Source: Candidatus Omnitrophota bacterium
GTDB taxonomy: Bacteria > Omnitrophota > Gorgyraeia > Gygaellales > Profunditerraquicolaceae
Assembly: GCA_026387265.1 (NCBI GenBank)
Contig: JAPLLZ010000020.1
Location: 5,413 to 69,412 of the forward strand
DNA: 64,000 bases
Direction of reading: 5' to 3'
The notes beneath the pieces are model-generated. The model was not told where the DNA came from and did no database searches. It saw only the letters and a program-made list of their open reading frames with translations. The position numbers and the translations under genes were made by a program. This document shows, piece by piece, positions 55,901-64,000 of this stretch (its first letter is position 1; each line of letters opens with the position of its first letter).

Positions 55901-58459
55901 CATAATCAGGCTAAGCTTGGCGTAAACCGCGTACGCGCTCCGCCTGTTGGTATTAAGAATTTCATAGCTGCTTTAATCTTCGGCCTTTCCGCGTTAACTT
56001 TCCACAATGCATTAAATTTCAGTCAAATCAATTTAACCGTGCCGTCTATTGCTATTTCTATATTAGAAATAGCCGTGGCGGTTATTTTCATTAAAGGAGG
56101 TGTACCATGTGCCCTATCAAAATCGAAGATATCAGAATGGATCACATCGTTGATTACACGAAGAACTACTCTACCTTTGCAACAGCCCGCCAAAACAGTA
56201 ACAACCACCTTAGGATCTTTATGGTCAATGATTCCGGCAACGTTTATCTGCGCAATGGGCGCGGTGAAAGCTGGATGGAGATCCTGGGTAGCGCAGCCGA
56301 GAAAGTCCGGGATTGTATTGACCAAGCGCGCAGCTATGTTCCGGTCTACAAAGTTAACGCAGCTTACGGATACAACAACTAATTCCGGTGAAGACAAGTT
56401 TGTTTCTAACAAGGCGTCTACTCCTACCGTGGCAGGAAAGAGTACGCCGATTATTGCTGGCAAGGGTGTCCAGACTTCCCTCCAGAAGACGATCACTGGC
56501 ACCTTTGCCGCAATAAATAATAAGTTTAGCTCTTTAAAGCGGGCATTAGTTACCGCTTGCGTTATTGTAGTAATGTTGTTTGCCCTTACTGGTTGTGCTA
56601 CCAATAGTAATAATATTGTTAATGTTCAATATTCTGATACTGTCATGCAAGAGTATAGCGATAATTTGCAGGGTTGGGCTCAGGATCTAGCGTATACTAA
56701 AGTTGGCAAGACATTGAATTTTACTTCAGTTGATGCGCAAGAAAGAGTTATAGAAATTAATGATTATATTAATAACCTGTGGGATGAGATGTATAAGGCA
56801 GGAGAATTAGATGATTATTTGACTAAGAGAGGGGATTCTGCAGAAGCGGTTATCATAGGTAAAGGGTTATTGCTTATACAGCTTACTGATCCTCAGGTTT
56901 ATGAAATGCTTAAGGAAGAGAATGCTGCTTTTTATGTTAATCCGCAATTAGAAGGCAGCGGTGCGACCTACGGAACTAATTGGCTCGGAACGATGGGCCG
57001 GCCGATTGTCGAAGTACATGCTAAATATATTAACGATCCGTTTACCGTAGCGCGCATCTTAGACCATGAGTCAGTCCATGTAGAAGCCCTGCCGCAAAAC
57101 TTCTTCCAGGCAGTCGGTAAGTATAACGTGATTAAATTGTTGGTAGATATTGTTGCTAGTGTTCCTGTTGAAGAGACCAAGGCTTATGCCAGAGAGGCGG
57201 AGTTTGCAAGTAAATTTGGTATTATGCCGGAAAAGGGTAAAGAATTCTTTGATGAGATGGATTTAATGTTTGCTTATTCTGATGAGAAGCAAAGTTTCGT
57301 ATTAATGGGTATTGCTTATAACATGTGTGTTTATGCGCCTCTCTTTTTAATCGGGTTTTATCTTATCAGAAGAACAATCAGACGGGCGCACTCAGAATCT
57401 TATAATGCAATATATATCCCTAGTAGAAAAACCTACTATTATATTAATGAGGAAAATGAACAACTCTTTATGGATAGTGCCGATTATCTTAAGCGCCAGA
57501 ATGCCCGCGCTGTTGTTTTCTCCAAAAAGGTTTTATATGTTCCTAGTGAGGAAGTATATTACTTTATCAATGAGAGAAAGCTGGGATTCTTTATTAACAA
57601 TGCCAAATATTTTAAGAGCCAAGGATTTAATTTGCGTTATTTAGACGATCTGATAAGAAAGGCTGAAGAATACAATTGTGATCTTGATTGCGATGGCGTT
57701 GCTGTTCCGGCTTCTAATGGTACATTTGTAGTACGGGAATTAGAGAATCCTGAGTCGCATAATCTGCAGCCCATCGGTCAAATTATTGCTGCCTTACGTC
57801 ATCCTTCAGTAGCCGGTAGCTTCTTAAAGGTAGCCAGATTATCCTATAAAGTAGCCTGTTTCAAGCTTGCAGAACAGAATGGCATCAGAGGCGCTCCGGT
57901 AGTAAGACATATCCGCGCTTTCTTCTACGTATTAGCTAACTCTAAAACCGGCAGAAATGTTACTGCCGAATACATATCTTCCAAGCTTTCTGCTAAAGAT
58001 GCAACATTCCTCAATGCCCAATTAGATCTTCATGAAAAAGGTGAGACTGAAAGAGCGGGCCTAAAGGCTCAGGTAGAAGCGTTCAGAAAGAATAAGGATC
58101 AAGGTGAGGAATACTTAGCTTTTATCATTATCTCGACCCTTTCTGCTACAGCAGCTTTTATTGTATTCATGGTATTAAATTTAGGAGTCACTTTAAATAT
58201 TCATCCTGCTTTTGTAGCGGCAGCAGCAGCTATGGCTGTACCATTTCTTTTGTTTCCGGCTAAATTCCTTTTTAGTAATATAGCTACACTTATTTCTTCC
58301 AATATAGCTAATGCGCATAAAGCAAAACAAGTAAGGACGTCCTCATACATGAACACTGCTTTAGAAAAATCTTCATCTTTAACGGTAACTATACAGGTTC
58401 CGGTGTACAAAGAAACATTTGAACAAACAATCAAGCTTACTTTTGTGATGATGGCCTGA
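52967..58459 (+). CDS. Giant protein 2 (1830 aa)
   Basis: A GTG start overlaps the end of ORF1 by 17 nt. It contains an N/D/G low-complexity tract and three copies of an internal repeat. Several TM segments follow, then an internal lipoprotein-signal-like segment and an HExxH motif. C-terminal TM helices and the first beta-strand of a GT2 domain come last. One ~280 nt stretch (56100-56390) translates poorly in this frame. Confidence 0.6.
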   Translation: MGIADKSLGINEKNFNWMNGKNCFITIAPLAIRAALEAAKNKIEASGKLWTLRVAVQTYNDLVDEYNASHQDKLERLFVAKVAQSRIKELIDQEVSFEITENLGDSFHAILPFGYVENESSLSITAMNGNVADHRRTVNVADLDFSGTGVIVMVAESAKNLITKEESDAAEDGYRSTDDKPITGDTNVNTDTASKDTHNDNNDINNNNNNGGEGKGNGGNDGGNTGKDHANKANNVNNNDGKDGDSDLAGEKISQDLPETGKVAIEDAIVDSFNRITANNLSPPEAIFANLANTLRIVVNQLKEELSDLTRANTASLRNAIDVFNELIAILDNLANNPIVSLKYFLMLARREEEDIVTPLLKTLIGAIKDRGLNNLHGRYFRAARLIAHRYGLPYSSMVELANTFILLNETNDFINALKEEDFVRAELEARAKETEIASLATFAHNGGFVVMNNAAAYDRLNNVLNILNNSVGRYTSGVGVAVNVVKIKFGETRAGLNSIIGALSASVSGIFSRLGSLFVITPALAGQVESDETASTLLSSLTRASDELSQFPANLPTAKTVVNTVETAKSTNSQSITAENKTIASDILNNVLNILNNSVAKYVSNIKVTINAIKVGVTGAARVGLSSIANTLSSSLTNVSNKLSSSPISSLLTRLATVNESGIVNVGLSIVLAPAATVSLGIVAPIAVHLFGLVLGGVAALVTGFVLVAGLSKVINNSVSTHLAASTASLSASQDVDVNNADLTSATAKTATGTVETAKSINSQSVTVESKVTVSGILNNVLNILSNSVAKYVSNIKVTINAIKVGVTGAASPVAGSTTVPAASSTSLPASQAVNTNNANLTKLAAKVLNLVHSLIASIRNILNNLSSKSEIKGETSTKVQANILGNSISSLAPPVNGLIARFVKNAINQLINAIKGEENGHEKNNRNERGNSSNRYTVQNKTAPGNETGSGIRNAKFKEYINRKAGQLINWLRTILHNQAKLGVNRVRAPPVGIKNFIAALIFGLSALTFHNALNFSQINLTVPSIAISILEIAVAVIFIKGGVPCALSKSKISEWITSLITRRTTLPLQQPAKTVTTTLGSLWSMIPATFICAMGAVKAGWRSWVAQPRKSGIVLTKRAAMFRSTKLTQLTDTTTNSGEDKFVSNKASTPTVAGKSTPIIAGKGVQTSLQKTITGTFAAINNKFSSLKRALVTACVIVVMLFALTGCATNSNNIVNVQYSDTVMQEYSDNLQGWAQDLAYTKVGKTLNFTSVDAQERVIEINDYINNLWDEMYKAGELDDYLTKRGDSAEAVIIGKGLLLIQLTDPQVYEMLKEENAAFYVNPQLEGSGATYGTNWLGTMGRPIVEVHAKYINDPFTVARILDHESVHVEALPQNFFQAVGKYNVIKLLVDIVASVPVEETKAYAREAEFASKFGIMPEKGKEFFDEMDLMFAYSDEKQSFVLMGIAYNMCVYAPLFLIGFYLIRRTIRRAHSESYNAIYIPSRKTYYYINEENEQLFMDSADYLKRQNARAVVFSKKVLYVPSEEVYYFINERKLGFFINNAKYFKSQGFNLRYLDDLIRKAEEYNCDLDCDGVAVPASNGTFVVRELENPESHNLQPIGQIIAALRHPSVAGSFLKVARLSYKVACFKLAEQNGIRGAPVVRHIRAFFYVLANSKTGRNVTAEYISSKLSAKDATFLNAQLDLHEKGETERAGLKAQVEAFRKNKDQGEEYLAFIIISTLSATAAFIVFMVLNLGVTLNIHPAFVAAAAAMAVPFLLFPAKFLFSNIATLISSNIANAHKAKQVRTSSYMNTALEKSSSLTVTIQVPVYKETFEQTIKLTFVMMA

Positions 58460-64000: not shown

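What the first reader, a model, noticed from the sequence alone, without database searches (positions are those of the whole stretch)
58459..64000. Long ORF on the + strand absent from the ORF track because it runs off the window
Manual translation of frame 1 from the ATG at 58459 gives more than 1847 codons with no stop. The product is protein-like throughout, for example ...GHNAYIRKALLSQIGWWPENRVSEDL... and ...DWVWAQHWVYYKAWTYYGSTDPTGPAP....

The N-terminal ~300 aa match a processive GT2 of the cellulose/chitin-synthase type. It has a KAG-N-LN-like KKGSNLNYTL, a DxD-like DKDS, the GxNxxxRxxAL stretch, the TED-like SEDL, and a QxxRW position reading KQMTKY. Six to eight TM helices follow, and then a large extracytoplasmic region including a possible (alpha/alpha)-toroid-like segment (DWGMTYDQALAV, NAWLGIAILQYAE).
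Basis: seen in the sequence. Interest (0 to 1): 0.6.

Follow-up and report, generated by a model that had tools for sequence, protein, structure and literature searches.

The report
Broken sugar-polymerase module in giant gene
The open frame is real, but it is the tail of a very long Omnitrophota surface-protein gene, not a separate gene. It carries a membrane sugar-polymerase module, cut in two here by a frame-shifting deletion, followed by an outward-facing sugar-cutting-type barrel domain that partners this polymerase in many bacteria.

Summary
Observation confirmed. Frame 1 is open from 58459 to 64000 (1847 codons, chance about 1e-58), and the ORF tool omits it only because it runs off the window.

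Interpretation largely right:
- PF13632 GT2, E 3e-24.
- DxD, GHN..R and SED motifs sit on family-invariant columns.
- About 5 hydrophobic segments follow, plus a later anchor.
- A confidently modelled (alpha/alpha)6 barrel (pLDDT 88.5) has GH76/MmpH-like neighbours.

The ATG at 58459 is not the true start of the domain. The two N-terminal TM helices and strand beta1 (TIQVPVYKE) lie at the end of the upstream 1830-aa ORF, in another frame. The invariant DDG codons sit untranslated just before the ATG. Against the closest homologue, an Omnitrophota MAG where the module lies in-frame in an open frame of at least 7299 codons, the window lacks 70 nt (3n+1).

ORFs 41176-52983, 52967-58459 and 58459-&gt;64000 read as one giant gene of more than 7600 codons. 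It lies downstream of a Tad/T2SS-like locus, the published Omnitrophota giant-gene layout.

New lead: 48 of 113 GT2-homologue loci from other phyla have a homologue of the barrel domain within the 10-kb flanks fetched, mostly the adjacent gene, usually as a lipoprotein.

Verdict: new member of a known kind, moderate interest.

The parts
41176..52983 (+). ORF1 (3935 aa), the N-terminal part of the giant gene. It has a Peptidase_C39 domain near the N-terminus and a weak P-loop helicase-like stretch.
   Evidence: C39 25.5 bits against cut-off 22; ResIII below cut-off
52888..53005 (+). First frame break. A 21-nt tandem repeat (AIGVSEK units) runs in the ORF1 frame. The same heptad pattern (GIADKSL, GINEKNF) continues in the ORF2 frame, shifted +1.
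   Evidence: read directly from the sequence
52967..58459 (+). ORF2 (1830 aa), the middle part of the giant gene. It has internal repeats, TM segments, a lipobox-like internal signal and an HExxH. Its last ~230 aa are R module + 2 TM + GT2 strand beta1.
57756..58095 (+). R module, copy 1 (~115 aa), just upstream of the GT2 cassette.
   Evidence: 78.6% aa and 82% nt identity to copy 2
58109..58300 (+). Two TM helices that precede the GT2 domain in all full-length homologues (..FPAKFLFSNI..), encoded in the ORF2 frame.
58379..58414 (+). GT2 strand beta1 (LTVTIQVPVYKE), in the ORF2 frame.
58423..58461 (+). Second frame break. It holds a T4 run (58441-58444), the site of a 70-nt (3n+1) gap relative to L005, the DDG codons (58447-58455) in the ORF3 frame but upstream of its ATG, and the TGATG stop/start overlap at 58457-58461.
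58459..59328 (+). Remainder of the cytoplasmic GT2 (PF13632) catalytic domain. Motifs: FKKGSNLNY 58648-58680, DKD 58831-58839, GHNAYIRK 59038-, SED 59104-59112, KQMTKY 59221-.
59356..59898 (+). Cluster of about five hydrophobic (TM or interface) segments after the GT2 domain, conserved in homologues.
59968..60312 (+). R module, copy 2, followed by a charged linker (to ~60825) with no detectable family.
60826..60906 (+). TM anchor ending in a lipobox-like IFQAGC, followed by an S/T/P-rich linker. It corresponds to the lipoprotein signal peptide of the stand-alone (alpha/alpha)6 partners.
61030..62073 (+). Extracytoplasmic (alpha/alpha)6 barrel domain.
62074..64000 (+). Aromatic-rich orphan region (at least 640 aa, open at the window end) with short internal repeats (42-aa units at 62416-62625; ~51-69-aa 'YYWQxS..Y.EAL' units).
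23012..39496 (+). Upstream Tad/T2SS-like locus: PPIase, RcpC, secretin, CpaE/CpaF-type ATPase, about ten Flp-like pilins and two T2SSF genes. This is the context that marks Omnitrophota giant genes.
   Evidence: literature

Best explanation
The open frame from 58459 is the downstream continuation of one very long, multi-module membrane/surface-protein gene. That gene runs from 41176 to beyond 64000 (more than 7600 codons). It is of the kind described in Omnitrophota and lies directly behind a Tad/T2SS-like secretion-pilus locus.

The flagged stretch encodes, in order:
1. Most of a membrane-embedded family-2 glycosyltransferase 'synthase' cassette (2 TM + GT-A domain + about 5 TM).
2. A cytoplasmic linker carrying a repeated R module.
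3. A TM anchor derived from a lipoprotein signal.
4. An extracytoplasmic (alpha/alpha)6 barrel with a conserved acidic pocket.
5. An aromatic-rich orphan region.

Inferred mechanism. The GT2 cassette would polymerise a sugar from a nucleotide-sugar at the inner face of the membrane and pass the chain outward through its own helices. The tethered (alpha/alpha)6 domain would cut or otherwise process glycan outside. This is the division of labour seen in synthase-dependent exopolysaccharide systems, and this barrel domain is adjacent to the GT2 gene in about 40% of its homologue loci from several phyla.

In this genome, as sequenced, the cassette is broken. A deletion of 3n+1 nt (70 nt against the closest homologue) removes helix alpha1 and the start of beta2, and it shifts the frame. 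Beta1 therefore ends the upstream ORF, the invariant DDG is translated in neither ORF, and ORF3 restarts at a TGATG overlap. The transferase is then most likely inactive in this strain. The outward-facing barrel and tail could still be made by coupled re-initiation.

Shown: domain identities, the split, the giant-gene context and the gene-pair conservation. Inferred: polymer synthesis and export, hydrolase activity, loss of activity, re-initiation.
For: - Open frame.
- PF13632, 86 bits.
- Family motifs sit on invariant columns, and homologues are contiguous across the junction.
- L005, an Omnitrophota MAG, has the same cassette at 59% identity, including beta1-alpha1-beta2. It lies in-frame in a 7299-codon open frame with no stops.
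- The 70-nt gap sits exactly at the frame change.
- The same module lies inside open frames of at least 7027, 5095, 4339 and 3804 codons in other MAGs.
- At the ORF1/ORF2 junction a repeat array continues in the shifted frame.
- The Tad-like locus lies upstream. This is the published context of Omnitrophota giant genes, which are also reported to hold GT domains, C39 peptidases and GH76-like folds.
- The (alpha/alpha)6 model has pLDDT 88.5 and PDB neighbours MmpH, GH76 and AGE.
- Invariant D39, N96/W98, E148/N150, D212 and E275 lie at the N-termini of the six inner helices.
- 48 of 113 unique GT2-homologue loci carry a homologue of the barrel within the 10-kb flanks fetched. Most are the adjacent gene, 38 of them upstream on the same strand, and it is fused to the GT2 in L008, L068 and L045.
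- In Firmicutes and Actinobacteria the partner is a ~430-aa lipoprotein, and the GT2 is fused to a Ser/Thr kinase or to GGDEF-EAL.
- The Omnitrophota stand-alone barrel proteins are PilZ-TM-(alpha/alpha)6.
Against: - No reads were available, so the two frame breaks could be assembly artefacts.
- The GT2 structure model was poor (pLDDT 54), so the GT-A fold and any channel rest on sequence homology only.
- The QxxRW motif is non-canonical (K..KY).
- No substrate, product or activity is known for any member of this GT2/(alpha/alpha)6 pair.
- The barrel lacks a significant hit to any GH Pfam family (best GH88, E 0.004, below cut-off).
- The gene's 3' end lies outside the window.
- Outside the GT2 cassette, ORF1-3 share no detectable similarity with the L005 giant protein. 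'One gene' is therefore inferred from the junction anatomy, not from a collinear orthologue.
Confidence: 0.72

Rival explanations
1. The frame breaks are sequencing or assembly artefacts. In the real genome ORF2 and ORF3 (and ORF1) form one uninterrupted frame and the GT2 cassette is intact and active.
For: - Every homologue is contiguous across the junction.
- All family-invariant residues downstream of the break are intact, and the DDG codons are preserved out of frame.
- There are two breaks within 5.5 kb, one inside a 21-nt tandem repeat and one at a T4 run where one extra T restores the frame.
- Many complete Omnitrophota genomes come from nanopore metagenomes.
Against: - Restoring the frame with a single T still leaves the domain about 23 residues short of helix alpha1/beta2. 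A 70-nt loss is not a typical base-calling error.
- Four independent short-read assemblies match the window at 100.000% with no gaps over 8.6 kb, so the consensus is accurate where it can be checked.
Confidence: 0.22
2. ORF3 is a genuine independent gene. It would be an N-terminally shortened GT2-like membrane protein with an extracytoplasmic barrel, translated from the ATG at 58459 and functional as such. It might complement the ORF2 tail as a split enzyme.
For: - The TGATG stop/start overlap is a classic coupling arrangement.
- The frame stays open for 1847 codons.
- The remaining catalytic motifs are intact.
Against: - The nearly invariant DDG nucleotide-binding motif and helix alpha1 are in neither product.
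- No Shine-Dalgarno-like sequence precedes the ATG.
- No homologue among 113 loci starts at this position.
Confidence: 0.04
3. Programmed -1 ribosomal frameshifting at the U4 run (ACU UUU G) joins ORF2 and ORF3 during translation.
For: tRNA-Phe can re-pair one base back on UUUU. The resulting product...EQTIKLTFCDDGLMYF..., restores the DDG motif.
Against: - There is no X XXY YYZ heptamer.
- The downstream 125 nt fold no better than shuffles (z -0.15).
- Homologues need no frameshift.
- The product would still lack about 23 residues of the fold.
- A second, +1 shift would be needed at 52966.
Confidence: 0.02

Closest known systems
Omnitrophota giant multi-enzyme membrane proteins ('Archaeovorin'-type; West-Roberts et al. 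2023 bioRxiv 10.1101/2023.11.21.568195; 39,678-aa protein of Ca. Velamenicoccus archaeovorus)
   Same: - It lies directly downstream of a T2SS/Tad-like locus with RcpC, secretin, GspE/F-type genes, a Rotamase PPIase and many class-III-signal pilins.
- It has many TM segments and an N-terminal C39 peptidase.
- It holds glycosyltransferase and glycoside-hydrolase-like modules, including a GH76/epimerase-like (alpha/alpha)6 fold detectable only by structure prediction.
- The best homologues are Omnitrophota MAGs.
   Different: - Only about 7.6 k codons are visible, because the gene runs off the window.
- The frame is broken twice.
- The transferase is a membrane-embedded PF13632 GT2 synthase cassette, whereas the paper highlights GT5 and GT1 domains.
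- No SecA_DEAD domain reached significance.
Synthase-dependent exopolysaccharide systems (BcsA with BcsZ GH8, Alg8/Alg44 with AlgL, PgaC with PgaB, Listeria PssC with PssZ). Comparison from established knowledge.
   Same: - A membrane GT2 with catalytic D, DxD and (S/T)ED motifs is followed by TM helices.
- It is partnered with an extracytoplasmic glycan-cleaving enzyme that is often an (alpha/alpha)6 barrel.
- Relatives are wired to c-di-GMP: PilZ on Omnitrophota barrel proteins and GGDEF-EAL on Butyrivibrio GT2.
   Different: - It is only remotely related. The PDB profile hit to plant CesA has E 0.0075, and CelA and PgaC models score far below their cut-offs.
- QxxRW is replaced by K..(R/K)Y.
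- No BcsB-like partner, PilZ or outer-membrane porin is visible within ORF3.
- Synthase and barrel are fused in one polypeptide inside a giant protein.
GH76 alpha-1,6-mannanases and MmpH (mycobacterial methylmannose polysaccharide hydrolase, PDB 7qsj)
   Same: It shares the (alpha/alpha)6 barrel fold (Foldseek E 3e-10 to 1e-7, TM about 0.6-0.7). MmpH likewise works within a polysaccharide biosynthesis cluster.
   Different: - Sequence identity is 10-15%.
- No significant PF03663 hit for the window domain.
- No conserved adjacent Asp-Asp pair in the family alignment.
- AGE-type epimerases and GH8 score almost as well, so the chemistry is open.
Cyclic beta-1,2-glucan synthase Cgs (from established knowledge; not tested here)
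   Same: It is a large inner-membrane polypeptide that combines a glycosyltransferase domain, TM helices and (alpha/alpha)6 glycan-processing domains in a single chain.
   Different: It uses a different GT family (GT84) and different barrel families. No sequence relationship was detected.

Membership tests
GT2, PF13632 (Glyco_trans_2_3) membrane synthase | Significant match to the family HMM above the curated cut-off | tested here: met
   86.2 bits against 27, E 3.4e-24, aa 121-340
GT2, PF13632 (Glyco_trans_2_3) membrane synthase | Complete GT-A core in one polypeptide, including beta1-alpha1-beta2 and the DDG (first Asp) motif | tested here: not met
   Beta1 is in the ORF2 frame. The DDG codons lie upstream of the ORF3 ATG and are read as VMM in ORF2. 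About 23 residues are missing against L005.
GT2, PF13632 (Glyco_trans_2_3) membrane synthase | DxD motif and (S/T)ED catalytic-base motif | tested here: met
   DKD (aa 125-127) and SED (aa 217-219) sit on nearly invariant and invariant columns. SED aligns to TED of CesA 8vht.
GT2, PF13632 (Glyco_trans_2_3) membrane synthase | Q(Q/R)xRW acceptor-binding motif of processive synthases | tested here: inconclusive
   The position reads KQMTKY and the family consensus is K..RY.FG. It aligns to QVLRW of CesA. The motif is a variant, not canonical.
GT2, PF13632 (Glyco_trans_2_3) membrane synthase | TM helices flanking the catalytic domain that could form a translocation path | tested here: inconclusive
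   Hydropathy finds 2 segments before the domain (in ORF2) and about 5 after it, conserved in homologues. The structure model was too poor to show a channel.
GT2, PF13632 (Glyco_trans_2_3) membrane synthase | Processive polymerisation of a defined sugar | not testable with these tools
   This needs biochemistry.
GH76-like (alpha/alpha)6 glycoside hydrolase | (alpha/alpha)6 barrel fold | tested here: met
   AF2 pLDDT 88.5, pTM 0.90, 12 helices. Foldseek top hits are MmpH 7qsj (E 3e-10) and GH76 6u4z, 6shm and 4c1s.
GH76-like (alpha/alpha)6 glycoside hydrolase | Significant match to PF03663 or another GH family HMM | tested here: not met
   Only GH88 (E 0.0041) and GlcNAc 2-epimerase (E 0.051), both below cut-off. 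The profile against PDB gives GH76 6u4z at E 0.0034. A few homologues carry a precomputed PF03663 hit.
GH76-like (alpha/alpha)6 glycoside hydrolase | Catalytic adjacent Asp-Asp pair of GH76 | tested here: inconclusive
   The 38-sequence alignment has no invariant adjacent DD (D112 conserved, D113 not). The conserved acidic residues are D39, E148, D212, D264 and E275. No residue-level superposition was possible.
Omnitrophota giant ('Archaeovorin'-type) gene | Preceded by a conserved T2SS/Tad-like locus with RcpC, secretin, GspE/F, Rotamase PPIase and class-III-signal pilins | tested here: met
   compared with the description.
Omnitrophota giant ('Archaeovorin'-type) gene | Single ORF of tens of thousands of codons | not testable with these tools
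   The window ends inside the gene. About 7.6 k codons are visible, in three frame segments. The exact DNA was not found in the genome or metagenome collections.
Omnitrophota giant ('Archaeovorin'-type) gene | Many TM segments, C39 peptidase, divergent SecA_DEAD, and GT/GH modules | tested here: inconclusive
   TM segments, C39 (25.5 bits against 22), GT2 and the GH-like barrel are present. SecA_DEAD was not detected, only a weak ResIII P-loop hit.
Omnitrophota giant ('Archaeovorin'-type) gene | Omnitrophota origin | tested here: met
   The best GT2 homologues (54-59%) and the source-named hits among the more than 150 barrel-domain homologues, nearly all Omnitrophota/Omnitrophica MAGs.

The most novel reading that the evidence does not exclude
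The PF13632 GT2 and its (alpha/alpha)6 partner may define an uncharacterised polysaccharide synthase-plus-glycanase system that is widespread and signal-regulated. The regulators would be c-di-GMP through PilZ or GGDEF-EAL, or a Ser/Thr kinase. The system is found in Firmicutes, Actinobacteria, Elusimicrobia, Planctomycetes and Omnitrophota. Omnitrophota would have absorbed this two-gene pair whole into giant surface proteins, as a cassette bracketed by R-module repeats that evolve in concert (100% identical in L005, 82% here). Recombination between such repeats would then be a way in which giant genes gain, lose or break modules. The break seen here would be one such event caught in a natural population.
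Probability: 0.3. Interest if true: 0.6.

Novelty: new member of a known kind. Interest (0 to 1): 0.4.

Why it matters
It shows how an edge-truncated ORF that looks like a novel fused synthase is really part of an Omnitrophota giant gene, a class whose function is still open.

It also gives that class a concrete, testable sub-unit. A membrane GT2 cassette and an outward-facing (alpha/alpha)6 enzyme occur as a neighbouring gene pair in cultivable Firmicutes such as Butyrivibrio and Ohessyouella, where the polymer and the enzyme activity could actually be determined.

The frame-shifting deletion, if real, is a natural knock-out. It would say that the transferase module is dispensable or variable within populations.

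Tried and rejected
- Extending the gene downstream failed. The last 48 nt of the window have no exact match in genome contigs or metagenome contigs.
- ORF2 with two alternative starts is not on record.
- Logan short-read contigs of the same strain exist, but they stop at ~40,140, before the giant gene.
- No near-identical protein fragments turned up. The second scans of both collections gave no relative closer than L005.
- The GT2 structure prediction on the frame-corrected sequence with a 10-sequence alignment was too poor to use (pLDDT 54).
- NCBIfam gave nothing useful for any ORF3 segment.
- Pfam gave nothing for aa 478-850 or aa 1216-1847, and nothing for the few homologues of the C-terminal region.
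- Programmed frameshifting was rejected: no heptamer and no downstream structure.
- A pure homopolymer error was rejected as the full explanation, because about 23 residues would still be missing.
- The literature search for PF13632 systems was uninformative.
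Full report
**1. The observation**

Frame 1 from the ATG at 58459 to the window end is open for 1847 codons. With a per-codon stop probability of 0.07 in this window, that has a chance of about 8e-59. The ORF is missing from the ORF list only because that tool does not list ORFs that run off the source.

**2. What the flagged stretch encodes**

Pfam places a Glyco_trans_2_3 (PF13632) domain at aa 121-340 (E 3.4e-24, 86 bits against a cut-off of 27).

A search of 5.8 billion proteins gave 24 homologues. 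The best is a partial Omnitrophica protein at 55% identity. In the alignment:
- FKKGSNLNY, LLLDKDS and GHN...R fall on nearly invariant or invariant columns.
- W.E.RVSED and E....(R/K)Y.FG..E do likewise.
- A profile of this alignment hits plant cellulose synthase 8vht weakly (E 0.0075). SED aligns to TED and K..RY to Q..RW.

Hydropathy finds about five hydrophobic segments at aa 300-480 and a further one at aa 790-816. The latter ends in a lipobox-like IFQAGC followed by an S/T/P-rich linker.

Residues ~858-1205 are 35-42% identical to a domain found in more than 150 proteins of ~650 aa; those that carry a source name are almost all from Omnitrophota. Those proteins are built as PilZ, one TM helix, a coiled coil, then this domain. 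An AlphaFold2 model made with 38 of these sequences has pLDDT 88.5 and pTM 0.90. It is a twelve-helix (alpha/alpha)6 barrel.

Its best PDB neighbours are:
- the mycobacterial methylmannose-polysaccharide hydrolase MmpH (E 3e-10);
- GH76 alpha-mannanases;
- AGE-type epimerases;
- GH8 enzymes.

Sequence HMMs give only sub-threshold GH88, epimerase and GH76 signals. The family-invariant polar residues D39, N96/W98, E148/N150, D212 and E275 (domain numbering) all sit at the N-termini of the inner helices, the usual active-site end of such barrels.

The last ~640 residues are rich in Trp, Tyr, Thr and Gly and contain short internal repeats. They have no Pfam or NCBIfam match. Only seven homologues turned up among 1.84 billion representative proteins, and those have no meaningful Pfam match either.

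**3. The ATG at 58459 is not the beginning of the domain**

The upstream ORF (52967-58459, 1830 aa) ends with:
- an R module;
- two TM helices (..FPAKFLFSNI..);
- ...LTVTIQVPVYKETFEQTIKLTFVMMA*.

In every full-length homologue these TM helices and the 'TI.VP.Y.E' strand are the N-terminal part of the same GT2 protein. About 25 residues and then the nearly invariant DDGLM follow.

In the window the DDG codons are present at 58447-58455, in the frame of ORF3 but upstream of its ATG. ORF2 reads them as VMM. The ORF3 frame is closed by a stop at 58420-58422.

The closest homologue found in 185,579 species genomes is on a 46.8-kb contig of an Omnitrophota MAG (L005). It is 59% identical over ORF3 aa 1-497 and 39% over the ORF2 tail. 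It reads ...TIQIPIYKEEFETTIRPTLRSALREINDYNRAAGRTIANIIVCDDGLMVF... without interruption. A DNA alignment shows a single 70-nt gap in the window exactly where the frame changes, at a T4 run (58441-58444).

Seventy is 3n+1. One deletion therefore explains both the missing helix alpha1/start of beta2 and the frame shift. One extra T would restore the frame, but the domain would still be about 23 residues short.

**4. ORF3 is part of a giant gene**

- In L005 the whole 21.9-kb locus is one open frame (7299 codons, no stop) with the GT2 cassette in the middle. Pfam also finds an M48 peptidase and weaker (sub-threshold to borderline) Hint, LysM and GH2 signals in it.
- The same cassette lies in-frame inside open frames of at least 7027 codons (a Planctomycetia MAG), at least 5095 (Omnitrophota), at least 4339 (Elusimicrobiaceae) and 3804 codons.
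- At the ORF1/ORF2 junction, a 21-nt tandem repeat encoding AIGVSEK units in the ORF1 frame is continued by GIADKSL and GINEKNF in the ORF2 frame. That is a second (+1) frame break inside a repeat array.
- ORF1 (3935 aa) starts with a TM segment and a C39 peptidase domain.

Immediately upstream (23012-39496) lies a Tad/T2SS-like locus with:
- a Rotamase PPIase;
- RcpC/CpaB;
- a secretin;
- a CpaE/CpaF-type ATPase;
- about ten Flp-like pilin genes;
- two T2SSF genes.

This is the arrangement West-Roberts et al. describe for Omnitrophota giant genes. They also report glycosyl transferase, glycosyl hydrolase and C39 domains, numerous TM helices and GH76- or epimerase-like folds found only by structure prediction. 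A 2026 preprint extends this to hundreds of complete genomes.

Outside the GT2 cassette the window's ORFs and the L005 protein share no detectable similarity. These genes are mosaics, and the cassette is a shared module.

**5. Are the breaks real?**

- No reads were available.
- Four independent short-read (Logan) assemblies are 100.000% identical to the window, with no gaps, over up to 8.6 kb. They end at ~40,140 inside a multi-copy 23S-rRNA-IVP gene, before the giant gene. The consensus is therefore accurate where it can be checked.
- A 70-nt loss is not a base-calling error. A local mis-assembly or a minority allele cannot be excluded.
- All invariant residues downstream are intact and the out-of-frame DDG is preserved. 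If the break is real, it is recent.
- Programmed frameshifting is unlikely. There is no slippery heptamer, the downstream RNA folds no better than shuffles (z -0.15), and no homologue needs a frameshift.

I put a real lesion at about 0.7 (counting the split-gene and programmed-frameshift readings) and an artefact at about 0.2, with the small remainder left open.

**6. A conserved partnership**

I searched the 113 unique loci that had been fetched purely by GT2 homology for ORF3's barrel domain. This gave 48 hits (tblastn E 1e-16 to 3e-4):
- 38 directly upstream on the same strand, typically 100-400 nt between the alignments;
- 8 downstream on the same strand;
- 2 downstream on the opposite strand;
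- fusions into the same open frame in L008, L068 and L045.

In Clostridia and Actinobacteria the partner is a ~430-aa lipoprotein (LLCAGCG, LTGCG). The GT2 there is extended by a Ser/Thr kinase plus DUF5050, or in Butyrivibrio by GGDEF-EAL.

Together with the PilZ domain on the Omnitrophota stand-alone barrel proteins, this looks like a signal-regulated pair of polysaccharide synthase and extracytoplasmic glycan-processing enzyme. In ORF3 both partners are fused, and the former lipoprotein signal serves as an internal TM anchor. This is the strongest argument that the two domains work on the same glycan.

**7. Mechanism, shown and inferred**

Shown:
- the domain identities and their order;
- the split of the GT2 domain;
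- the giant-gene context;
- the gene-pair conservation.

Inferred from the families:
- A nucleotide-sugar-dependent polymerisation at the cytoplasmic face, with export through the cassette's helices. This is as in synthase-dependent systems such as BcsA, with an extracytoplasmic glycanase like BcsZ, PssZ or AlgL (established knowledge).
- Hydrolase-type chemistry in the barrel's acidic pocket.
- Loss of transferase activity in this strain.
- Possible coupled restart at the TGATG overlap.

Whether the target glycan is the cell's own polymer or a prey surface (the predation hypothesis for these genes) cannot be decided here.

**8. Verdict**

The object is a broken internal module of an Omnitrophota giant gene rather than a new stand-alone fused synthase. 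It is a new member of a known kind. The conserved GT2/(alpha/alpha)6 pairing and the R-repeat-bracketed cassette are the parts worth following up.

Noticed in passing
window 57756-58095 and 59972-60308; L005 9614-9913 and 11978-12277: The GT2 cassette is bracketed by direct repeats of a ~115-aa 'R' module in both genomes. The repeats are 82% nt identical here and 100% identical over 300 nt in L005, with similar spacing (2214 against 2364 nt). This suggests concerted evolution or recombination around the cassette.
   Followed up: partly
L013-L106 (e.g. L019 8523-13699, L047 9743-15171, L054 8447-13705): In Firmicutes and Actinobacteria the GT2 homologue is fused to a Ser/Thr kinase + DUF5050 or to GGDEF-EAL. 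It sits next to a ~430-aa lipoprotein homologous to ORF3's (alpha/alpha)6 domain. In Butyrivibrio that partner carries an extra GDPD phosphodiesterase domain.
   Followed up: partly
window 52888-53005: A 21-nt tandem repeat (GCAATAGGAGTTAGTGAAAAA, about 3.7 copies) lies at the end of ORF1. The repeat pattern continues in the +1 frame as the start of ORF2, so this is a second frame break in the giant gene.
   Followed up: partly
window 23012-39496: A complete Tad/T2SS-like locus: PPIase, RcpC, a secretin fused to TonB_C, an AAA_31/ParA-like domain fused to a T2SSE ATPase, about ten Flp-like pilin ORFs with a 'GQSTLEY' motif and two T2SSF genes.
   Followed up: partly
window 29196-31759: A 756-aa ORF with long E/K/A-rich repeats (AEEKAAQEA..., no Pfam hit) is overlapped for 79 nt by a 123-aa ORF in another frame. 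This may be a further frame break.
   Followed up: no
window 40107-40511: A 23S_rRNA_IVP four-helix-bundle gene. All four 100%-identical short-read contigs from public runs end inside it, which suggests it is multi-copy in this genome.
   Followed up: partly
window 16096-19741 (minus strand): A response regulator-GGDEF, a histidine kinase and a FIST sensor lie just upstream of the pilus/giant-gene region. This is c-di-GMP signalling, while the Omnitrophota paralogues of the barrel domain carry PilZ.
   Followed up: no
window 56570-56605 and 57062-57085 (ORF2): ORF2 contains an internal lipoprotein-signal-like segment (VMLFALTGC) and an HExxH motif (DHESVHVE). Further former stand-alone secreted proteins may be embedded in the giant frame.
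   Followed up: no
window 54322-55509 (ORF2): There are several direct DNA repeats of 77-174 nt (67-90% identity) that encode Ser/Asn/Val-rich repeats.
   Followed up: no
window 1-15974: A co-directional cluster includes radical-SAM and B12-binding enzymes, DUF2079 and a nucleotidyl-transferase fused to a GT2 (PF00535). This is a second, unrelated glycan-related cluster.
   Followed up: no
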